In this document: positions 7,494 to 21,072 of the stretch, piece by piece
Position numbering within the stretch: the stretch's first letter is position 1
Layout: every line of letters starts with the position of its first letter
Source: Candidatus Limnocylindria bacterium
GTDB lineage: Bacteria > Chloroflexota > Limnocylindria > P2-11E
Assembly: GCA_036003765.1 (NCBI GenBank)
Contig: DASYSC010000012.1
Coordinates: 4,787 to 68,786 of the forward strand
Direction of reading: 5' to 3'
Length of the DNA stretch: 64,000 bases
Notes under the pieces: model-generated
The model's input: the letters and a program-made list of their open reading frames with translations, nothing else
Databases searched by the model: none
What the model was told of the DNA's origin: nothing
Translations under genes and position numbers: made by a program

Positions 7494-8213
7494 ATGAGAG
7501 GAATCATTTCCGGCATGCTGCGGACACTCGAGCACTTCGTGCGACCGCGTCCGGTCACTCGGAAGTATCCGTATGAGAAGCGCGATCTTCCGGAGCGGTC
7601 CCGTGGGCTCATTGCTCTTCTGCTCGAGCCGGAGACGAGCATCTTCAAGTGCGAGTCGTGTCTCATGTGTGAGAAGGCGTGCCCGCCGCGAGCGATCTCT
7701 ATCTCCTACACATTTAAGAACGGCTTCCGCAAGCGCCCACCGCTCGCGCCGCGCGCGTCTTACTACCGGATCCGCATGGTGCAGACCGCGCCGTACGGTG
7801 ATCGCCGACCGCAGTCCACCGCCGTGACGACCATCCCGGCGGAGGATGAAGATCGCTTGGATCTGGGCCCGGTCCGTCGTGTGCTGCGGGAGACCCCGAA
7901 GGGCGCCGACCGGTTGACGCGCGTTCTCTACGCGACGAATGCCGCATACGGCTACCTGCCCTGGCGCGCCGCGGAGCTCATCGCGGCCGAGTTCGGGAAG
8001 ACCATGACCGACCTGTACACGGCGGCGTCTCTCCTCGCGAACTTTCGCGGGGCCCCCGACGGCAAAGGGACGGCGATCCCGCGCGGAGGCCGCAGGTACA
8101 CCGGCAACCTCGGCGTCGCGGGCGTCTGGCCCGAGGCGTCACCGCCTCCCGCGCACGACGACCTGCACGAGGACGAGATCCATCACGTCCTCGAGCCGAC
8201 CTTTGCCCGCTAG
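7494..8213 (+). CDS. chimeric NuoI-like (single 4Fe-4S motif) / NuoE-N-terminal-like protein
   Basis: N-terminus VTRKYPYEKRDLPERSRG...CESCLMCEKACPPRAISI matches the NuoI start and its first CxxCxxCxxxCP. No second Cys motif is present. C-terminus LTRVLYATNAAYGYLPWRAAELIAAEFGKTMTDLYTAASLLANFR resembles the helical N-domain of NuoE/HoxE without the 2Fe-2S thioredoxin-like domain. Confidence 0.6.
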   Translation: MRGIISGMLRTLEHFVRPRPVTRKYPYEKRDLPERSRGLIALLLEPETSIFKCESCLMCEKACPPRAISISYTFKNGFRKRPPLAPRASYYRIRMVQTAPYGDRRPQSTAVTTIPAEDEDRLDLGPVRRVLRETPKGADRLTRVLYATNAAYGYLPWRAAELIAAEFGKTMTDLYTAASLLANFRGAPDGKGTAIPRGGRRYTGNLGVAGVWPEASPPPAHDDLHEDEIHHVLEPTFAR

Positions 8214-9408
8214 CACCGCGCCGCGGCTCCTCGATGGGGAAGCACGCGGTGCGCTCGAGCGCGCGCGGTCGACGGCTATCGACGAGCTCATCCAGATCGT
8301 CGAACGGAGCGGGCTCCGCGGCCGCGGGGGCGCGGGCTACCCCTTCGCCGAGAAGCTTCGCGCCGTCCGGCGGAACGTCGACGGCGGCGAGGTGTACCTC
8401 GTGGCGAACGGTTACGACGCCGACCCGGCAAGCCCGCTCGCCCGAACCCTTCTCACGCGCAACGCCGCCAACGTGCTGCGCGGTATCGCGATCGCGGTGC
8501 ATGCGGTCGGCGCGACGCAGGCGTACCTCTACCTGCACCCCGAGGCGATCGATGCCCGTGCCGCAGCGGAGCGGGCGATCCTGGAGCTCGGCGGGGACCT
8601 CGGAGTCCCGATCGAGATCGCGCTCGGCCCAGGCGGCTTCATGGGTGGCGAGGAGTCGGCCCTGCTCGCGGTGCTCGAGTCCCGCCGCGCGATGGCGCGC
8701 CAGCGCCCGCCGTATCCGGCCGCGCAAGGGCTCCGGCTTCGGCCGACGCTCGTGTCGAGCGTAGAAACGCTGGCCTGGCTACCGCTCGTCATTGAGGAGC
8801 AGGCCCGAGCGAACACCAAGCTCGTCTCGGTGACTGGAGCGGTGAACCGGCCCGGCGTGTACGAGATCGTGCTCGGCACGCAGCTCGGCGAGATCCTGAG
8901 CGAGGCCGGCGGGGCGACCGGAAAGATCAAAGGCATCCACGTGGGTGGGCCGACGGGTGGCATCCTCGCATCGTCGAGGCTCGACACGCGGTTCGCCTTC
9001 GACGACCTTCGGGTCGCAGGCACGCACATGGGATCGGCGCAGGTCCGCGCGATCGCCGCGGGCACATGCATCGTCAACGAGGCGGCGACGCTCTTCGCGT
9101 ATCTGGCGCGGGAGAACTGCGCGATCTGCGTTCCGTGCCGCGTGGGCACAAAGCGCGTGCAGGGCATCCTCGAGAGTACGTACTCGGGCCTCGGTCGCGA
9201 GAGCGACCTCGCGTGGCTCGACGAGCTCGGCACGCACATGGAGCGGTTCTCGCTCTGTGGGTTCGGGATCACCGCACCCTCGATCCTCCGCACGACGATG
9301 CGTGAGTTCCCCGAAGACTACCGAGTGCACATTCAGGAGCGTCGGTGTCCCGAGGGCACGTGCAAGCCCGTGCGATCCCGCAGGTACGAGACGATGGTGC
9401 AGCCATGA
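8203..9408 (+). CDS. divergent NuoF-like flavoprotein (FMN site plus N3-type 4Fe-4S)
   Basis: GLRGRGGAGYPF (NuoF has GLRGRGGAGFP), GGFMGGEESALL...RPPYPAAQGL (NuoF has GAYICGEETAL...KPPFPA), CAICVPCRVGT...SLCGFG (CxxCxxC...C). The NADESEPG block is replaced by NGYDADPAS. Overlaps the previous gene by 11 nt. Confidence 0.75.
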   Translation: MPASTAPRLLDGEARGALERARSTAIDELIQIVERSGLRGRGGAGYPFAEKLRAVRRNVDGGEVYLVANGYDADPASPLARTLLTRNAANVLRGIAIAVHAVGATQAYLYLHPEAIDARAAAERAILELGGDLGVPIEIALGPGGFMGGEESALLAVLESRRAMARQRPPYPAAQGLRLRPTLVSSVETLAWLPLVIEEQARANTKLVSVTGAVNRPGVYEIVLGTQLGEILSEAGGATGKIKGIHVGGPTGGILASSRLDTRFAFDDLRVAGTHMGSAQVRAIAAGTCIVNEAATLFAYLARENCAICVPCRVGTKRVQGILESTYSGLGRESDLAWLDELGTHMERFSLCGFGITAPSILRTTMREFPEDYRVHIQERRCPEGTCKPVRSRRYETMVQP

Positions 9409-9613: not shown

Positions 9614-12022
9614 ATGAGTTTGCTCGAGAGATACACGCAGCCTGCGGAGTCGCAGATCCCCACGGTCTCGCACAGCGGCGAGATCCCAAGCGGTCAGCCG
9701 ACGTGCACGATCTGGATCGACGGGAAGGAAGTCACGGCGATCCCCGGCGAAGCGATCTTGCGAGCCGCGCAGCGCGCTGGGTTCGAGGTGCCGACGCTCT
9801 GCGACGACGAGAAGCTCGCTCCGGCCGCCGCGTGTCGCATGTGCCTGGTGGAGATCGAGGGCTACCACCGCCCGATGCCGTCCTGCCATTTGCCGGTAGA
9901 GCCCGACATGAGGATCACCCAGGCCTCGGAGTCGCTGTTCAAGCTGCGCCGCCAGAACCTCGAGTACATCCTCAGCGACCACAACGCCTACTGCATGCCG
10001 CCGTGCCAGATCAGCTGTCCGACGCACATCGACATACCCGGCTACCTGGAGCTCATGTCGAAGGGCCAACACGTGGAAGCGGCGCGCCTGGTCAAGGAGG
10101 TCCTGCCGTTCCCATACATGCTGGGACTCGTGTGCCCAAAACCGTGCCAGGAGGTCTGCCGCCGCGGGCTGGTCGAGGAAGAGATCGCCATCTGCCAGTG
10201 CCACGGCTTCACCGGCGAGCTCGTCATGGAAATGGACAAAGCGCCCACGCCATTTCCGCAGCTCGCGGCGACAGGAAAGCGCGTGGCTGTCGTCGGCGCG
10301 GGGCCGGCCGGAATGACCGCGGCGTACTACACAGCGCTCAAGGGTCATGCCGTCACGGTGTTCGACATGATGCAAAAGCAGGGCGGCATCGCGCGGTATG
10401 GCATCCCCGAATACCGCCTCCCGAAGGTGAAGCTCGACAAAGAGCTGAACTCTGTGTGGCAGCTGCGGGACACGGACTTCAGGGGCGGGATGATGCTCGG
10501 CCGCGATTTCAGCCTCGACGATCTCTTCACCCAGGGTTACGACGCGGTCTTCCTCGGGATCGGCGCGTGGCGCTCGAACGAGCTCCGGATCCCTGGCGAG
10601 GATCTCCCTGGGGTGATCGAGGCGATCAACTACCTCCGCATGAACGCGGAAGGCGACCCTGTACCGGTTGGGAAGGGCCAGAAGGTCGTCGTCATCGGCG
10701 GCGGGTTCACCACGTTCGACTGCTCGCGGACCTCGCGCCGCCTGGGTGCGGACGTCACGGTCGTGTATCGGCGGTCGCGCAAGGAGATGGGCGCACATTA
10801 CAGCGAGGTCGACGATGCTGAGCACGAGGGCATCAAGCTGGAGTTCTTCGCCTCGCCGGTGAAGATCGTCGAGAAGAATGGTCGCGTCGGCGGGATCGAA
10901 TTCCAGCGCATGGCGCTCGGCGAGCCCGACGCATCGGGACGGCGTCGCCCGGTCCCGATCGAGGGCTCGAACTTCGTGATTGAGTGCGACACCGTCATTC
11001 CCGCGATCGGCCAGGTGCCCAATCTCGACTTCTTCGAGCGCGAGTCGGGCGTGAAGAAGACGAGGCGCGAAACGATCGTCACCAACGGCGCGCTTATGAG
11101 CGACCGGCCCGGGGTGTTCGCCGGCGGCGACTGCCAGATGGGCGCGGTCACCGTGATCCAGTGCGTCGCGCAGGGCAAGCTCGCGGCGAAGGCCATCGAT
11201 CGCTACCTGGCGGGCGACGACATGGCGCGCGTCGCCGCGGAGATAGCGGAAGAGGAAGCGGTCCCCGAGCTCATCGACATCGTTCCGTACAAGCCCGAGG
11301 AGCCGCAGGTGCGTATGCCGATGCTCCCGTTCAAGGAGCGCGAGCTCAGCTTCCAGCTCATCGAGAACGGCTACGACAAGGCCGCCGCTGAGAAGGAGGC
11401 CGCGCGGTGCCTGCAGTGCGTATGCCCCGATGTCGGGCGCTGCCACCTGCAGCGGCTTTCACTCGAGCACGGTCTCACTGACAACCGCTTCCACCGCGCG
11501 GAGCCAGTCGACTACCACGACTACGAGTACGACTTCAGTCACGACTTCATCCTTCGCGACCTGAACAAGTGCATCAACTGCACGCAGTGCGTCCGGATCT
11601 GCCGCGACGTGATCGGTGCGAACTGCTACGGCCTCATGGGCGGCGGGTACGACTCGATCGTCACGACGCCGTGGAACGTGTCTCTCAAGTACACCGACTG
11701 CGTGTCCTGCGGCGCGTGCGCCGAGACATGTCCGACCGGGGCGCTGATGATGCGCGAGCGGGACCTGCAGACCTACGAGCTCGACATCGTCCGCTGCATC
11801 TACTGCGGCGACTGCGTGGAGGTCTGTCCACATGGCGCGCTCGGCGAAACGCCGAACTTCGAGCTTTCGACGTACGGCCGCTTCGGGAGGACGGTGCTCG
11901 CGAAAGAAGAGCTCGCCGCCGCGCGTACGTGGAAGCCGTCGGAGGAGATTCCGCTCGATGGTCACAACGCGCCGCGCCCGCCGGAGATCCGGCCGCCCGG
12001 ACCGCCGCGCTGGGGCGCCTGA
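9614..12022 (+). CDS. multidomain Fe-S flavoprotein: 2Fe-2S ferredoxin + GltD-like NAD(P)H/FAD oxidoreductase + NuoG/HoxU-like 4Fe-4S + 2x4Fe-4S ferredoxin
   Basis: N-terminus CTIWIDGKEV...PTLCDD...AAACRMCLVEIEG (NuoG/HoxU 2Fe-2S). CMPPCQISCPTHIDIPGY...LVCPKPCQEVCRRG and KRVAVVGAGPAGMTAAYY...GIPEYRLPK (GltD/SudA type). CLQCVCPDVGRCHLQ and KCINCTQCVRICRDV (NuoG N5/N4-like). CVSCGACAETCPTGAL and CIYCGDCVEVCPHGAL (ferredoxin pair). Confidence 0.8.
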   Translation: MSLLERYTQPAESQIPTVSHSGEIPSGQPTCTIWIDGKEVTAIPGEAILRAAQRAGFEVPTLCDDEKLAPAAACRMCLVEIEGYHRPMPSCHLPVEPDMRITQASESLFKLRRQNLEYILSDHNAYCMPPCQISCPTHIDIPGYLELMSKGQHVEAARLVKEVLPFPYMLGLVCPKPCQEVCRRGLVEEEIAICQCHGFTGELVMEMDKAPTPFPQLAATGKRVAVVGAGPAGMTAAYYTALKGHAVTVFDMMQKQGGIARYGIPEYRLPKVKLDKELNSVWQLRDTDFRGGMMLGRDFSLDDLFTQGYDAVFLGIGAWRSNELRIPGEDLPGVIEAINYLRMNAEGDPVPVGKGQKVVVIGGGFTTFDCSRTSRRLGADVTVVYRRSRKEMGAHYSEVDDAEHEGIKLEFFASPVKIVEKNGRVGGIEFQRMALGEPDASGRRRPVPIEGSNFVIECDTVIPAIGQVPNLDFFERESGVKKTRRETIVTNGALMSDRPGVFAGGDCQMGAVTVIQCVAQGKLAAKAIDRYLAGDDMARVAAEIAEEEAVPELIDIVPYKPEEPQVRMPMLPFKERELSFQLIENGYDKAAAEKEAARCLQCVCPDVGRCHLQRLSLEHGLTDNRFHRAEPVDYHDYEYDFSHDFILRDLNKCINCTQCVRICRDVIGANCYGLMGGGYDSIVTTPWNVSLKYTDCVSCGACAETCPTGALMMRERDLQTYELDIVRCIYCGDCVEVCPHGALGETPNFELSTYGRFGRTVLAKEELAAARTWKPSEEIPLDGHNAPRPPEIRPPGPPRWGA

Positions 12023-12732
12023 TCGCACACGATCGGCGCCTCGCGTGGGACGCGTGCCTCAACGTGCGCGATCTCGGCGGCCTTCGCTGCGCGGGTGGCG
12101 TGATCAGGAGCGGGGTCCTCGTGCGCGCATCGACCTTGGGATTGCTCACGACGGCAGGGTCGGTCGCGATCCGCGCCCACGGCGTCAGGACGGTCATCGA
12201 TCTGCGTGGGCCGGATGAGGTGACGGCACTGCCAAACCCGTTCGGGCTGGGCCTCGCGTACCGCAACGTCCGCGTCGATGGGGAACACACGCTGAAGCTG
12301 CACGAACATGCGATCGCCGGAACGATGGCGCATCAGCTCGCCGACCTCGCGCGGCCGGGGAGCGGGCTGCGAGCGGCACTCGCCGCGATCGCGAGCGCGG
12401 ATCCGGCCGTCGTCGTCCATTGCCAGGCCGGGCGGGACCGCACCGGGATCGTCGTGGCGCTGCTGCTCGCCGCGCTCGGTGTCGCCGACGACGACATCGT
12501 CGCCGACTACTGCGCGAGCGACGCCGAGCTCGCCGACGAGTACGCGCGCTTCAGAGCGGAGCACCCGGAAGTCGCCGCCGATATGGCGGAGCGCCAGGCC
12601 CGGCGTGCGTGGGTGATTGGCCAGCTCCTGGCGGCCGTGCGTACGGAGCACGGCGATGCCGAGCGCTACCTCAACCTTATCGGCGTGCGATCCGACGAGA
12701 TCAAGCGGCTGCGAGAGATGCTCGTCGCATGA
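12019..12732 (+). CDS. protein-tyrosine-phosphatase-like enzyme (CX5R, Y_phosphatase3 type)
   Basis: NVRDLGG near the N-terminus and the active-site loop VVHCQAGRDRTGIVVALLL. Start uncertain: CTG 12019 overlaps the upstream TGA, and GTG 12064 is the first canonical option. The track ORF from 11569 is a shadow frame over the upstream gene. Confidence 0.7.
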   Translation: MIAHDRRLAWDACLNVRDLGGLRCAGGVIRSGVLVRASTLGLLTTAGSVAIRAHGVRTVIDLRGPDEVTALPNPFGLGLAYRNVRVDGEHTLKLHEHAIAGTMAHQLADLARPGSGLRAALAAIASADPAVVVHCQAGRDRTGIVVALLLAALGVADDDIVADYCASDAELADEYARFRAEHPEVAADMAERQARRAWVIGQLLAAVRTEHGDAERYLNLIGVRSDEIKRLREMLVA

Positions 12733-13052
12733 CCCGTCGCGACCGCGTCGAGTCGCGGATCCGGCGCTCCGGACCGATCACCTTCGCGGACTTCCATGGA
12801 AGCCGCGCTCTTCGACCCCAAGGTAGGTTACTACACGACCCGCGCGTCACTCGGGTACAACGGCACGACGTCACATCCGCGGATCTCGACATCGTGCGAT
12901 GCATTTGGTTCGGCGACTGCGTGGAGGTCTGCCCCCACGGCGCGCTGGGCGAAACGCCGAACTTCGAGCTTTCGACGTACGGCCGCTTTTGGGCGGACCG
13001 TGCTGGCGAAGGAGGAGTCGCCGCGCCCGGTCCGCCACGCTGGGGGGCGTGA
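12729..13052 (+). pseudogene. chimeric duplication remnant: midA 5' fragment fused to the 3' end of the 802-aa Fe-S flavoprotein gene
   Basis: 12729-12888 parallels midA 14347-14509 (GPITFADF/MEAALFDPKVGYYTTRASLGYNG/VTSADL, read across two frames). 12885-13052 parallels 11780-12022 (DIVRCIWFGDCVEVCPHGALGETPNFELSTYGRF...PGPPRWGA*), with an internal deletion, a frameshift and a lost ferredoxin Cys (CIYC to CIWF). Confidence 0.7.
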
Positions 13053-13070
13053 GCGTCGGACCGCAGAGCG

Positions 13071-14150
13071 CTAGAGGGATGGCGGGCTCGGTAGCGGCGG
13101 GAGCGGCGGGAGTAGCCCTGGCGGGGATGGCGGCGGGTTGGGTGTTGGTGTGGGCGTCGGCGGAGGTGTGGGGGTCGGCGTCGGAGGCGGCGTCGGCGTG
13201 GGGTCCGGTCCGGGCCCCCCGCCAAAGAGGCACGCGCTGGACGCAGGCTGTTCGAACGCGCGGATATGTGAGTCGTATCCGTCCCTGAGCCAGAAGACCG
13301 ACACGCCGTAACTCAGGTTGTCGCATTCGAGATCCTGACTTGAGGACGAGCCGTTGATGGTGTAGGGGTACGCGCCGACCTTGCCGCCGGTCTTGGTGAA
13401 CTCAAAGATGTATTTGCATCCCGCGATGCTGACGAACAGGTGCGCGCCTCCCACCGCGACGCCGCTGCTCTGGCTGTACGGACACTGCGGAGACATGTCG
13501 TTCGGCGGAACGTTGATGTCGATGTAGGGCGTGCCGTCGACGATCGCGGCGGTGCCCTGCGCGTCCGCGTATGTGTGGTAGTGGTAGATCCGGGCCCCGG
13601 CATCGGAGCTGTACCAAATCGTGTCGTCCGCGCGGTCGTACGCGACCTTGACTTCGTTTGGGTAATCGCCGACCGGCTGGTAGCCGGGGCGGTCGTTGTT
13701 CGGATCGATCGTGAATATCAGCGTCGCCGCGCCGGATTTCCTGAGCAGGTACATCGATAATCCGTCCCCGCCGATCGCCCAGAACGCGTCGCGGCCGCGG
13801 TCGTACGCCAGGGTCATGATGCCCGATTGGGCTCCCGTGATGGTGATGTCGACCTGGCCGGTCGCGTTGCCCGACGAGCCCGCGGGTGGCGCGTTGATCC
13901 GATGGAGCTTCGAGTTGCCGTATCCGACGTGGTAGAGGTACGTCCCGTCGAACGCGACGCTCGGCGCGATGTTCTCTGGATACGCCTCATTCACGACCAC
14001 GTCGGCGACGAGGGCACCCGCGGCGCCCGCGGCACGTTGGGCTGTGACCAGAGCGAGCGGGAAGGCGAGCAGAGCCGCGATCAAGAGCGTCCCCGCGTTG
14101 CGCGCGAAGGGATGGCGCATAGACGAAATCGGCACGCGCTGGGGTGCCAT
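13071..14150 (-). CDS. secreted repeat protein of unknown function with C-terminal Pro/Thr tail (paralog of 20176-21072)
   Basis: Signal-like N-terminus (MRHPFARNAGTLLIAALLAFPLALVTAQRAAGA, with an alternative ATG at 14120). Collinear similarity to the 20176-21072 product (SPSV.FDG.YLY, YD.GRDAFWA..GDGLS.YLL.KSG, YDRADDT.W, RIYHY.TY.DAQG, ECDN.SYGVSV.W). Ends in PTPTPPPTPTPTPPP... Confidence 0.65.
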   Translation of the reverse strand: MAPQRVPISSMRHPFARNAGTLLIAALLAFPLALVTAQRAAGAAGALVADVVVNEAYPENIAPSVAFDGTYLYHVGYGNSKLHRINAPPAGSSGNATGQVDITITGAQSGIMTLAYDRGRDAFWAIGGDGLSMYLLRKSGAATLIFTIDPNNDRPGYQPVGDYPNEVKVAYDRADDTIWYSSDAGARIYHYHTYADAQGTAAIVDGTPYIDINVPPNDMSPQCPYSQSSGVAVGGAHLFVSIAGCKYIFEFTKTGGKVGAYPYTINGSSSSQDLECDNLSYGVSVFWLRDGYDSHIRAFEQPASSACLFGGGPGPDPTPTPPPTPTPTPPPTPTPTPNPPPSPPGLLPPLPPLPSPPSL

Positions 14151-14346
14151 GGGCTTGATTCGAACCCAGCCGGATTAAGGCCGGTTGGGGCGTCCGCATG
14201 AGGTCGGGGGGCGCATGCGCCTGTCCAGTCGAACGGCCCGCCGCTTTCAATACGGCGGCAATCCTCTGTCAGGCGCCTGGGCTGTCGCACCGGGCGGTCT
14301 TGTCTTCCCTCTCTCGCTGGCTCGGCGTGCGTATACGCTCGGGTCC

Positions 14347-15459
14347 GTGGCGAACATCGGCGAACGCATCGTCGCGCGGGTCCGCGCGCGTGGCCCGATC
14401 ACGTTCGCCGAGTACATGGAAGCTGTGCTCTACGACCCCGACGACGGTTACTACACGACGCGCGCGTCGGTCGGATTCGACGGCGACTACATCACCTCGG
14501 CGGATCTCGGACCGGCTTTCGGTCGGGCGCTCGCGAGGGCGGTCGTGGATCTTTGGACCCTGATCGGAAAGCCCCATGCGTGGGACCTGGTCGAGGCTGG
14601 GGCGGGGAGGGGAATCCTCATGCGCGATCTCCTCGTCGCACTCGAGCGCGAGCGGCCCGAAGCCGCTCGCGGAGCACGGTCCGCGATCGTCGAGGTGTCG
14701 CCACGCATGCGCGCGCAGCAATCCCTCGCACTCGAAGGACGCGACCTGCGATGGGCATCGGTCGCGCACAGCCTCGCGCCGATCCAGGGAGTGCTCTTCG
14801 CGAACGAGGTCCTCGATGCCTTTCCCGTTCACGTGCTGACGCGTACCGCCGACGGCGTGCGCGAGGTCTTCGTCGGAGAAGCGAACGGGATGCTCGTGGA
14901 GGTCTTGCGCCCACCGAGCGCGGATCTGCGCTGGCGGGTTCCGGAGTCGGTCCCGGTCGGCGGCCGGTGGGAGACCAGTCCCGCCGCGGAGGGCTGGGTC
15001 GCGAGCCTCGCCGGGGCGCTGGTCTCGGGCTACATCATCCTCGTCGATTACGGCGGCGAGGAGAGCGATCTCCTAGCGCGCGAGGGCGCGGGCACGGTGC
15101 GCGGATTCGCGCGTCATCGTCTCGTGGCGGATCCGCTGGCCGAGCCAGGTCGGCACGACCTCACGGCGAGCGTCGACTTCAGCGCGATCCAACGCGCCGC
15201 GGAAGGGGCGGGCCTACGCTTCGCGGGTTCGGCGACGCAGCGGGATGTGTTGCTCACGCTCGGGATCCGTGACGTCACTGCGCGGCCGTCGACACCGATC
15301 GAGCAGCTGCGCGCCGCGAGCCGCCGTTCGGCCATCGACGCTCTGCTCGATCCCAACGGGCTCGGCGCATTCAAGGTCGTGTGCTTCGCGAAGGAGGCGC
15401 CGACCGAGGGCCTACGGATGTTCGGCGCGGGGAGCGCTACGGGTTCGAGGCGAGGGTGA
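14347..15459 (+). CDS. MidA/NDUFAF7-family SAM-dependent methyltransferase (DUF185)
   Basis: GPITFAEYMEAVLYDPDDGYYTTRASVGFDGDYITSADLGPAFGRALA...LVEAGAGRGILMRDLL is the typical MidA N-terminal block plus the SAM-binding GxGxG. GTG 14347 was chosen by homology with the duplicated fragment. The track ORF starts at 14185. Confidence 0.8.
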   Translation: MANIGERIVARVRARGPITFAEYMEAVLYDPDDGYYTTRASVGFDGDYITSADLGPAFGRALARAVVDLWTLIGKPHAWDLVEAGAGRGILMRDLLVALERERPEAARGARSAIVEVSPRMRAQQSLALEGRDLRWASVAHSLAPIQGVLFANEVLDAFPVHVLTRTADGVREVFVGEANGMLVEVLRPPSADLRWRVPESVPVGGRWETSPAAEGWVASLAGALVSGYIILVDYGGEESDLLAREGAGTVRGFARHRLVADPLAEPGRHDLTASVDFSAIQRAAEGAGLRFAGSATQRDVLLTLGIRDVTARPSTPIEQLRAASRRSAIDALLDPNGLGAFKVVCFAKEAPTEGLRMFGAGSATGSRRG

Positions 15460-15512
15460 TGCTTTCGCGAAAACCCGAACAAGACGCGCGCGCTATTCTT
15501 GGAGTCCACCGC

Positions 15513-15586
15513 GGGCTCTTAGCTCAGCTGGTTAGAGCGCAGCGTTGACATCGCTGAGGTCGCGTGTTCGAGCCACGCAGAGCCCA
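15513..15586 (+). tRNA. tRNA-Val (anticodon GAC)
   Basis: Manual cloverleaf: acceptor GGGCTCT/AGAGCCC, D-arm GCTC-AGCTGGTTA-GAGC, anticodon arm CAGCG-TTGACAT-CGCTG, variable loop AGGTC, T-arm GCGTG-TTCGAGC-CACGC, discriminator A. CC follows in the genome. Confidence 0.9.
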
Positions 15587-20175: not shown

Positions 20176-21072
20176 TCATCCGCCGCCGTACACGCAGAGG
20201 TTCGGCGACGGCTGTTCGTAGGCGCGAATCTCGCCAAAGAAGGCATTCTTCACCCAGATGACCGACACGCCGTAGCTCACGTTGTCGCACTCGAAGTCGC
20301 CGATCGCAGAGGCTGAGATCTTGAACGAGGCGACCTTCACACCCGCGCGCGTGTACTGGAAGTAGCGCGCGCAGCCACCCGCACCGATGAGGAGATACGG
20401 GCCGCCGACGGCGATGGCGCTGCCGATCGAGTACCCGCACTCGGCCGTCATGTCGTTCGGCGGGACGCTGACGTCGATGAAGGGGGTCGACGCGAGGACG
20501 GCATGTCCCTGAGCGTCGGGGTACGTCTGATAGTGGTAGATGCGCGGCCACGCGTCCGGGCCGATCCAGAGCGTGTCGTCCGCGCGATCGTAGTTGAGCT
20601 TCGACTCGGTGCAAAAGTTCCCGGGCTGGCACTGGTAACCCGGACGGCCGTTCAGCGGATCGATCATGAAGATGAGGACCGCCACGCCCGACTTGGCCAG
20701 CAGGTACACCGAGAGCCCGTCACCCGCCGTGGCCCAGAAGGCATCGCGTCCGGCGTCGTACGAGATCCCGATCACCCCTGAGGGAATGCCCACGATCGGG
20801 ATGTCGATGTGGCCGGTCGCATCGTGCGCGCCACCCGGCGGTGGCACGTCGATGCGGTGCAGCAGGTGCCCCGCGAACTCGGCGTAGTAGAGATAGCGCC
20901 CATCGAACCCGACGCTGGGCGAGATGCCCAGGGGCCAGACCGTCGCCCCCTCAGGCGTGAGCACGTCCGCGACGAGGTCGCCGGGGGCCGCCCGGGCCGG
21001 CGTCGCGGGTTGCAGCACAACGAACGCGACGACCAGGACCAGCGTCAGAGCGCGCGGCAGGTGTCTTTCCAT
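20176..21072 (-). CDS. secreted repeat protein of unknown function (paralog of 13071-14150)
   Basis: Signal peptide MERHLPRALTLVLVVAFVVLQPATPARA from ATG 21072, 2 nt after the wecB stop. Collinear with the 13071-14150 product and lacks its Pro/Thr tail. The track ORF extends to 21342 over wecB. Confidence 0.65.
   Translation of the reverse strand: MERHLPRALTLVLVVAFVVLQPATPARAAPGDLVADVLTPEGATVWPLGISPSVGFDGRYLYYAEFAGHLLHRIDVPPPGGAHDATGHIDIPIVGIPSGVIGISYDAGRDAFWATAGDGLSVYLLAKSGVAVLIFMIDPLNGRPGYQCQPGNFCTESKLNYDRADDTLWIGPDAWPRIYHYQTYPDAQGHAVLASTPFIDVSVPPNDMTAECGYSIGSAIAVGGPYLLIGAGGCARYFQYTRAGVKVASFKISASAIGDFECDNVSYGVSVIWVKNAFFGEIRAYEQPSPNLCVYGGG

What the first reader, a model, noticed from the sequence alone, without database searches (positions are those of the whole stretch)
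11780..14509. Tandem-duplication scar creating a chimeric ORF and indicating an ancestral nuo-like-phosphatase-midA operon
12729-12888 is a degraded copy of the midA 5' end (14347-14509), with two compensating frameshifts. 12885-13052 is a degraded copy of the 3' end of the 802-aa gene (11780-12022), with an extra T, an internal deletion of about 75 nt and CIYC changed to CIWF. The two fragments join at a CTCG(A/G) microhomology around 12885-12888. The order is [A-3'end, phosphatase, midA-5'] followed by [A-3'end', spacer, midA]. This is the signature of a tandem duplication in which only the outer copies stay functional. The phosphatase stop overlaps the start of the midA fragment (ATGA), so phosphatase and midA were once translationally coupled directly behind the nuo-like cluster. 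The second spacer now holds a secreted-protein gene on the opposite strand. Its Pro/Thr linker ends 18 nt from the scar.
Basis: seen in the sequence. Interest (0 to 1): 0.6.

Follow-up and report, generated by a model that had tools for sequence, protein, structure and literature searches.

The report
Recombination scar joining two operon versions
A 330-base stretch of dead gene fragments in a soil Chloroflexota genome is real and marks the spot where two already-diverged versions of the same locus were spliced together at a 4-base match, an informative but not extraordinary relic of recombination.

Summary
12739-12888 matches the midA 5' end (78%, E 8e-26). 12882-13055 matches the 3' end of the 802-aa gene 'A' (87%, E 9e-44). 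They abut at CTCG (12885-12888). An independent Logan contig crosses the junction with 0 mismatches.

The predicted ancestral operon A-phosphatase(PTP)-midA, with ATGA stop/start overlap, is the standard layout in a sister genus (15 complete loci) and in soil contigs.

A plain in-genome tandem duplication followed by decay does not fit. Over 52 alignable codons, A and A' differ at 17 synonymous and only 3 non-synonymous sites (dS 0.66, dN 0.026, p=4e-5). That dS equals the distance between species of this genus. The midA fragment carries the operon-coupled N-terminus, unlike the resident midA. Both parental layouts exist intact: A-PTP-midA, and A-SEC(reverse)-midA in same-genus genome G001, whose A-stop/spacer/SEC-stop matches the window's A'-spacer-SEC.

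Best reading (about 0.6): an illegitimate, microhomology-mediated join between two divergent alleles of a hypervariable A..midA islet, probably during inter-species recombination, and younger than the split from sister species G009. The scar is unique to this genome among 22 species of the genus. Interest is moderate-low.

The parts
9614..12022 (+). Gene A: 802-aa 2Fe-2S / GltD-like FAD-NAD(P)H / 4Fe-4S protein, last gene of the nuo-like cluster. Its tip from about 11850 is of the PTP-linked type.
   Evidence: Pfam Fer2_4, Fer4_20, Pyr_redox_2, Fer4. Orthologues are 91-94% aa identical across the genus. The stop context GCCTGATCGCAC is shared only with G009 and G057, which carry the same PTP clade.
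11777..12025 (+). Functional counterpart of the A' fragment (A codons about 722-802 plus stop).
   Evidence: BLASTN 87% and 84% to 12882-13055.
12010..12732 (+). PTP: Y_phosphatase3-family protein tyrosine phosphatase with HCQAGRDRT. The start is uncertain: GTG 11929 (94-nt overlap with A) or CTG 12010/12019.
   Evidence: Pfam PF13350, E 3e-47. Start-codon listing. 90% aa identity to G009, 80% to G057, 50-56% to genus g3.
12729..12888 (+). midA' : pseudogene fragment, the first 53 or so codons of an operon-coupled (type 1) midA. The ATG overlaps the PTP stop (ATGA). +1 frameshift near 12794; -1 between 12864 and 12865.
   Evidence: The corrected translation MTRRDRVESRIRRSGPITFADFMEAALFDP.. matches type-1 N-termini (G007, G002, G004, G057, G023). 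dS 0.51 to the resident midA.
12885..12888 (+). Junction microhomology CTCG (6 of 7 over GA.CTCG) between midA codon about 53 and A codon about 722.
   Evidence: Three-way display.
12885..13052 (+). A' : pseudogene fragment of the A 3' end. It has CIYC>CIWF, an extra T at 12990 and a deletion of about 76 nt after 13017. Its stop context GCGTGAGCG is of the A-SEC type.
   Evidence: 17 synonymous / 3 non-synonymous vs A. Homology of stop and spacer with G001.
12729..13052 (+). Chimeric 107-aa ORF (midA N-terminus, out-of-frame stretch, half of a 4Fe-4S motif, A C-terminus), translationally coupled to PTP. Most likely a non-functional by-product.
   Evidence: ORF. Only sub-threshold Fer4 hits. 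Called as a gene on the Logan contig. No identical product elsewhere.
12948..12988 (+). 41-nt tract identical to 11843-11883. It carries synonymous states (GAA, CTT) seen only in A and A'. Probably a post-event gene-conversion patch.
   Evidence: (run-length p about 0.04).
13053..13070 (.). 18-nt spacer between the A' stop and the SEC stop, homologous to the 13-nt A/SEC spacer of G001.
   Evidence: Alignment.
13071..14150 (-). SEC: 359-aa secreted protein with a signal peptide and a Pro/Thr-rich C-terminus. No Pfam match. It belongs to a multi-copy family in this genus.
   Evidence: Homologues at 59-69% aa in G009, G006, G013, G014, G001, G004.
14347..15459 (+). midA2: intact Methyltransf_28 (MidA/NDUFAF7-like) gene of the stand-alone (type 2) kind. 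A conserved TAnnnT box lies 6-8 nt before the GTG.
   Evidence: Pfam PF02636, E 3e-53. Alignment of 5' regions. Gene tree.

Best explanation
The scar is the junction left by one illegitimate recombination between two pre-existing, species-level-diverged versions of the interval between gene A and midA.

Version P1 is the old operon A-PTP-midA, with midA translationally coupled to PTP. Version P2 is A, a short spacer, SEC on the opposite strand, then a midA with its own 5' region.

DNA of one version entered a cell carrying the other. One side recombined by homology. The other end was joined at a CTCG microhomology, linking midA codon about 53 of P1 to A codon about 722 of P2. This gives A-PTP-midA'|A'-SEC-midA in one step. 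The two inner fragments lost function at once and have since picked up four indels and a few replacements. A 41-nt patch of A' was later homogenised with A.

Which version was resident is not settled. I lean towards P2 resident and P1 incoming, with the highly conserved A 3' region as the homologous anchor (a homology-facilitated illegitimate recombination geometry).

Shown: the repeats, the junction, both parental layouts, the synonymous-dominated divergence, and the uniqueness and relative youth of the scar. Inferred: horizontal origin, mechanism and direction.
For: 1. The junction and repeats are real and independently assembled.
2. P1 exists intact in 15 complete g3 loci plus G057 and more than 10 soil contigs. 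All have the same PTP-stop/midA-start overlap, and the window's junction is colinear with it.
3. P2 exists intact in same-genus G001. Its A stop GCGTGAGCG, 13-nt spacer and SEC stop are homologous to the window's A'-18 nt-SEC.
4. A vs A' shows 17 synonymous and 3 non-synonymous differences: dS 0.66, dN 0.026. The binomial p is 4e-5 against 'A constrained, A' neutral'. dS equals that between WIN A and orthologues of other species (0.43-1.0).
5. midA' has the type-1 N-terminus. Its dS is 0.51 to the resident midA and is lowest to G007 (0.435). Its dN to the same-genus orthologues (0.16-0.24) is only moderately above the resident midA's dN to them (0.085-0.19).
6. The islet is demonstrably exchanged between species. 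G006 is sister to G012 in a 3-kb housekeeping segment, but its midA is sister to G009's. The window and G009 share a 92-97% patch over about 11850-12650, against 70-86% elsewhere.
7. The A..midA interval has at least six different contents in the genus.
8. The scar is absent from the other 21 species of the genus and from the metagenome contigs searched.
Against: - The dN/dS test rests on 52 codons. Part of the A/A' synonymous distance (the last 17 codons) could come from a later replacement of the tip of A by a G009-like allele.
- A and A' share two to three synonymous states found nowhere else. That would be expected from common descent within one genome, and I have to invoke a gene-conversion patch to explain it (run-length p only about 0.04).
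- Sister species G009 has A-PTP-18 nt-SEC-midA without a scar. So either a second independent event or a history I have not resolved is needed.
- No donor with a midA matching midA' closely was found.
- Competence or any other transfer route is unknown for this uncultured lineage.
- No read-level data could be examined.
Confidence: 0.6

Rival explanations
1. In-genome tandem duplication of the segment from A codon 722 to midA codon 53 in an A-PTP-midA ancestor. This would be followed by replacement of the right-hand PTP and midA 5' end by a SEC-midA2 allele through homologous recombination, and replacement of the tip of the left-hand A by a G009-like allele.
For: The junction topology is exactly that of a tandem duplication. 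A and A' share unique synonymous states and a 41-nt identical tract. Allele replacement at this islet does occur.
Against: It needs at least three events where one suffices. Even in the first 35 codons, outside any G009-like patch, differences are 8 synonymous to 3 non-synonymous. All 11 mismatches fall outside the two perfect tracts of 41 and 20 nt, within the remaining 40 or so nt of the 105-nt block. That pattern is not that of recent neutral decay. midA' and midA2 differ at between-species level and in allele type.
Confidence: 0.2
2. Collapse of a larger duplication. The lineage once carried two complete, functional copies of the operon end (..A-PTP-midA1 and ..A-SEC-midA2) for a long time. 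A recent deletion between CTCG repeats then removed the rest of midA1 and most of the second A.
For: It explains the synonymous-dominated divergence and the young pseudogene state equally well.
Against: No genome of 22 species in the genus, and none of the 41 relatives, has two copies of the A 3' end or the midA 5' end. The apparent second copies in G014 and G016 are contig-break overlaps. G000 itself has no other copy.
Confidence: 0.1
3. Assembly chimera that joins contigs of two co-occurring species.
For: The genome is a MAG of 231 contigs. The two halves do look like two species' alleles. Reads could not be inspected.
Against: Only 4 nt are shared at the junction, so no k-mer assembler would join there. 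An independent k=31 Logan contig crosses the junction with 0 mismatches. Both fragments carry frameshifts and a deletion that functional genes of other species would not have.
Confidence: 0.03
4. The 107-aa chimeric ORF (12729-13052) is a functional new gene kept by selection.
For: It stays open through four indels. It is coupled to PTP by ATGA. The A-derived part has few amino-acid changes.
Against: Open frames are common in this high-GC DNA. One Cys of the cluster motif is lost. The synonymous-only pattern continues in the original A frame after the frameshift, so selection acted before the fragment was made. There are no homologues and no identical product elsewhere.
Confidence: 0.03

Closest known systems
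[quoted passage not shown] 2002; Meier and Wackernagel 2003, as summarised in PMC6382021)
   Same: Divergent incoming DNA. A conserved stretch (the A 3' region, 90-97% identical across the genus) is available as a one-sided anchor. The other end is joined at a short GC-rich microhomology; 3-10 bp is reported and 4 bp is seen here.
   Different: This is seen only as a natural footprint. Transformation, RecA dependence and the anchor side are inferred. The join lies inside the homologous region, so a partial duplication rather than a deletion resulted.
Tandem duplication (merodiploid) join points formed by unequal crossing-over, including those triggered by transformation in Streptococcus pneumoniae (PMC3784515)
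   Same: A novel b|a junction flanked by direct repeats. The outer copies stay intact and the inner copies are truncated.
   Different: The duplicated unit is only 1.1-1.6 kb. The junction is a 4-nt microhomology, not a long repeat. The two units differ in gene content and were already diverged at between-species level.
Allelic replacement of variable islets flanked by conserved genes (for example capsule or O-antigen loci; from general knowledge, not tested here)
   Same: Conserved flanks (A, midA), alternative gene contents between them, and a phylogeny of the islet that disagrees with the genome tree.
   Different: The islet is tiny (0-5.8 kb). It sits at the end of a nuo-like operon. Here one exchange went wrong and left both flanks' fragments behind.

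Membership tests
Simple in-genome tandem duplication scar | Novel junction joining a downstream point (b) to an upstream point (a), with direct repeats on either side | tested here: met
Simple in-genome tandem duplication scar | The two units derive from the same sequence, so differences reflect decay of the non-functional copy (dN/dS near 1 in the fragment) | tested here: not met
   17 synonymous vs 3 non-synonymous differences, dS 0.66, p=4e-5. midA' is a different allele type.
Simple in-genome tandem duplication scar | The same gene content in both units | tested here: not met
   PTP in unit 1, and an unrelated SEC on the opposite strand in unit 2.
HFIR-type foreign DNA integration | Illegitimate junction at a 3-10 bp, usually GC-rich, microhomology | tested here: met
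   CTCG; 6 of 7 over GA.CTCG. The size range comes from PMC6382021.
HFIR-type foreign DNA integration | Joined segments come from diverged genomes | tested here: met
   Between-species dS with a low dN. Both parental layouts are found intact in other genomes.
HFIR-type foreign DNA integration | A homologous anchor on one side only | tested here: inconclusive
   The A 3' region is 90-97% identical across the genus, and the midA body is 70-86%. No crossover point could be located.
HFIR-type foreign DNA integration | Uptake by natural transformation and RecA dependence | not testable with these tools
   Uncultured MAG.
Y_phosphatase3 (PF13350) tyrosine phosphatase | Profile match above the gathering score, and a CX5R active-site loop | tested here: met
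   161.9 bits against a cut-off of 22.2. HCQAGRDRT is present in the translation.
MidA / NDUFAF7-type methyltransferase (PF02636) | Profile match above the gathering score for the intact gene. The fragment aligns to the N-terminus of family members. | tested here: met
   181.2 bits against a cut-off of 23.3. N-terminal alignment.

The most novel reading that the evidence does not exclude
The scar is a natural, datable footprint of one-sided homologous plus microhomology-mediated (HFIR-type) recombination between species of uncultured soil Limnocylindria. It lies at a tiny hypervariable islet behind a nuo-like operon, where a phosphatase-coupled midA allele and a secreted-protein/stand-alone midA allele are swapped between species. 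It would document both the mechanism and the moment at which a complex-I-assembly-type methyltransferase was uncoupled from its operon.
Probability: 0.5. Interest if true: 0.45.

Novelty: new member of a known kind. Interest (0 to 1): 0.35.

Why it matters
Junction scars that keep both parental ends are rare. They let one read the mechanism of a past rearrangement directly.

This scar shows that the interval between the nuo-like cluster and midA is a recombination hot spot with alternative gene contents that move between species. It also shows that midA was originally co-translated with a phosphatase at the end of that cluster. This strengthens the genomic link between the MidA/NDUFAF7-type methyltransferase and the nuo-like module.

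It is also a methodological caution. A duplication-shaped scar need not come from a duplication of the genome's own DNA, and the synonymous/non-synonymous pattern tells the two apart. It does not reveal a new kind of system.

Tried and rejected
I used exact-product look-ups to recover independent Logan contigs instead. The 107-aa ORF and the full A protein were not on record.
- Apparent second midA 5' ends in G014 and G016 looked like the same duplication. They turned out to be contig-end overlaps: an exact 141-nt overlap in G016 and a 96% strain bubble in G014.
- I first thought the window and G009 differ in origin to the right of the scar. Whole-contig comparison shows 70-86% identity everywhere, so only the 92-97% patch over the A tip and PTP is unusual.
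- A scenario in which the scar arose in the common ancestor with G009, and G009 later deleted it between GCATGA and GCGTGA, was rejected. The fragments show far too little non-synonymous decay for that age.
- A sliding-window search for a crossover inside midA found no breakpoint.
- Placing A' or midA' phylogenetically among orthologues gave no resolution, because all are about equally distant.
- The promoter/terminator scan found no promoter-like site, and its two terminator-like hits do not exceed the shuffle expectation. SEC has no Pfam match even at E=1.
Full report
**What is there.** The window comes from a 3.0-Mb, 231-contig MAG (G000, contig C12). Related records identify it as a soil Chloroflexota of the class Candidatus Limnocylindria.

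The genes around the finding are as follows:
- a NuoF-like gene at 8203-9408;
- gene A at 9614-12022, an 802-aa protein with Fer2_4, Fer4_20, Pyr_redox_2 and Fer4 domains;
- a Y_phosphatase3 phosphatase (PTP) ending at 12732;
- a 359-aa secreted protein with a Pro/Thr tail and no Pfam match (SEC) at 13071-14150 on the minus strand;
- a Methyltransf_28 (MidA) gene at 14347-15459.

**The observation.** Self-BLASTN gives three matches. 11777-11919 vs 12882-13024 is 86.8% (E 9e-44). 12739-12888 vs 14360-14509 is 77.6% (E 8e-26). 11994-12025 vs 13024-13055 is 84%. The repeat finder agrees.

- two compensating frameshifts in the midA fragment, near 12794 and between 12864 and 12865;
- CIYC changed to CIWF;
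- an extra T at 12990;
- a deletion of about 76 nt in the A fragment.

The junction is ...GGATCTCG|ACATCG..., with CTCG shared by both sources.

Exact-product look-ups did recover two Logan contigs of run SRR11742962. One equals window 11854-12977 and crosses the junction. The other equals 12959-14787. Both have 0 mismatches. Both stop inside the 41-nt exact A/A' repeat, as a k=31 graph would.

A second run, SRR11742812, holds a contig that encodes the identical 414-aa midA product. By its gene coordinates it should cover about 13400-15538. I did not compare its nucleotides with the window. With only 4 nt shared at the junction, and frameshifted fragments on both sides, an assembly chimera is very unlikely.

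**Comparative context.** I extracted the A..midA interval from relatives. In the same genus its content varies widely:
- 11-66 nt in G002, G004, G007, G016 and G017;
- 0.36-0.66 kb holding unrelated small secreted or membrane ORFs in G005, G020, G021 and G011;
- PTP plus SEC in G009;
- 5.6-5.8 kb including one or two SEC genes in G013 and G014.

In sister genus g3 it is PTP alone: 15 loci show A-PTP-midA completely and two more are cut by contig ends. The same layout occurs in G057 of another genus and in more than ten soil metagenome contigs.

In these operons the PTP stop overlaps the midA start, as ATGA or GTGA. The window's sequence GCATGACCCGTCGCGACCGC is nearly identical to G023's GCATGACCCTTCGCGACCGC.

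The scar itself occurs in none of the other 21 species of the genus, nor in the metagenome contigs searched. Apparent second midA 5' ends in G014 and G016 are contig-break overlaps.

**Why a simple tandem duplication does not fit.**

First, over the 52 codons of A' that can be aligned in the original A frame, A and A' differ at 17 synonymous and 3 non-synonymous positions. This gives dS 0.66 and dN 0.026. If A' had been decaying neutrally since a duplication while A stayed constrained, about 60% of the differences should be non-synonymous. The observed split has p=4e-5. The synonymous-only pattern continues in the old A frame even after the extra T, so it was laid down before the fragment existed. 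The dS value equals that between the window's A and orthologues in other species of the genus (0.43-1.0).

Second, the frameshift-corrected midA' reads MTRRDRVESRIRRSGPITFADF... It has the N-terminus of the operon-coupled type seen in G007, G002, G004, G057 and G023. The resident midA belongs to a second type, which is preceded by a conserved TAnnnT box 6-8 nt before a GTG start. midA' is at dS 0.51 from the resident midA and no closer to it than to other species. Its dN to the same-genus orthologues (0.16-0.24) is only moderately above the resident midA's dN to them (0.085-0.19).

Third, the two 'spacers' are unrelated genes.

Fourth, the second layout exists intact. In same-genus G001 (record VBFI01000179), A ends in GCGTGAGCG, followed by a 13-nt spacer and the SEC stop on the other strand. 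This is homologous base for base to the window's A' end, 18-nt spacer and SEC stop. By contrast, the window's functional A ends in GCCTGATCGCAC, as do G009 and G057, the other carriers of this PTP clade.

**Model.** The locus is a hybrid of two haplotypes. P1 is A-PTP-midA (type 1). P2 is A-spacer-SEC(reverse)-midA (type 2). They were joined by an illegitimate event at CTCG between P1 midA codon about 53 and P2 A codon about 722.

Because both fragments show little non-synonymous decay (about 0.03-0.07 per site) plus four indels, the event is young compared with the split from the sister species G009. That pairing has 100% support in a 3-kb housekeeping segment, and dS in the A tip is about 0.6.

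Exchange of this islet between species is independently visible in two ways. G006 groups with G012 in the housekeeping segment, but its midA groups with G009's at 99% support. The window and G009 share a 92-97% identical patch from about 11850 to 12650, against 70-86% elsewhere. Identity falls to 62% in the last 80 nt of PTP.

The geometry matches homology-facilitated illegitimate recombination, in which a homologous anchor on one side lets the other end join at 3-10 bp of microhomology (PMC6382021). It also resembles unequal, transformation-triggered duplication (PMC3784515).

I lean towards P2 being resident and P1 incoming, for two reasons. The A 3' region is the best-conserved anchor available, at 90-97% across the genus. 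And the tip of the functional A is of the PTP-linked type, while A' has the P2-type end. The direction is not established, however.

**Loose ends.**
- A and A' share a 41-nt identical tract that carries two synonymous states (GAA, CTT) seen in no other genome. I read this as a later gene-conversion patch. The run length is only mildly unusual, at p about 0.04.
- G009 has A-PTP-18 nt-SEC-midA with no trace of the fragments. Given the youth of the window's scar, this must be a separate event or an unresolved history.
- No breakpoint could be found within midA.
- No close donor was found for either fragment.

**Rivals.**
- In-genome duplication followed by two allele replacements is possible but needs more events. 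It does not explain the synonymous bias in the first 35 codons (0.2).
- Long coexistence of two full operon copies followed by a deletion explains the data, but no two-copy genome exists among those searched (0.1).
- Assembly artefact (0.03).
- A functional chimeric gene (0.03).

**Verdict.** The 'tandem duplication then decay' part is replaced by 'illegitimate join of two diverged alleles of a hypervariable islet'. This is a clean example of a known kind of event in an uncultured lineage, and its interest is moderate-low.

Noticed in passing
window 12023-14346, and L035-L050: The interval between gene A and midA is hypervariable within the genus. It is 11-66 nt in some species, holds unrelated small secreted or membrane ORFs (135-226 aa) in others, PTP+SEC in G009, and 5.6-5.8 kb with one or two SEC genes in G013 and G014.
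   Followed up: partly
window 14325-14349, and the same place in G001, G005, G006, G009, G012, G013, G014, G020: Stand-alone (type 2) midA genes have a conserved TA(C/G)(G/C)CT box 6-8 nt upstream of the GTG start. This suggests a leaderless transcript from the gene's own promoter. The simple sigma-70 scan found nothing there.
   Followed up: no
window 11929-12064: PTP has no ATG/GTG/TTG between the stop of A (12022) and its conserved N-terminus. Either it starts at GTG 11929, overlapping A by 94 nt, or it uses CTG 12010/12019. The same holds for G009 and G057, whose A stop context is identical.
   Followed up: partly
window about 11850-12650 vs G009:C76: A 0.8-kb patch (tip of A plus most of PTP) is 92-97% identical to sister species G009, while the rest of the 50-kb syntenic region is 70-86%. 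This indicates a recent homologous exchange between the two species.
   Followed up: partly
G006:C154 (L008) and G006:C9 (L186): The midA of G006 (next to a SEC gene) is sister to G009's (99% support). Yet a 3-kb housekeeping segment places G006 with G012. The SEC-midA module therefore appears to have moved between species.
   Followed up: partly
L023, L024 (family f2), L021, L022, L049, L050 and genus g3 loci: midA lies directly or within about 1 kb downstream of gene A of the nuo-like cluster across several genera, and in a second family of the order. This supports a functional tie between the MidA/NDUFAF7-type methyltransferase and this cluster.
   Followed up: partly
G057:C21 (L066) and Ga0184608_10021264 (L095): A genome of another genus (g15) and a soil contig carry A-PTP-midA with a PTP 77-80% identical to the window's. 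The g3 PTPs are only 50-56% identical, and most g15 genomes lack it at this place. This hints that the PTP allele crosses genus boundaries.
   Followed up: no
window 20176-21072, and L035 8066-10159: SEC belongs to a multi-copy family of secreted, Pro/Thr-tailed proteins without Pfam assignment. There are tandem copies in G014, and copies downstream of midA in G004 and G001.
   Followed up: no
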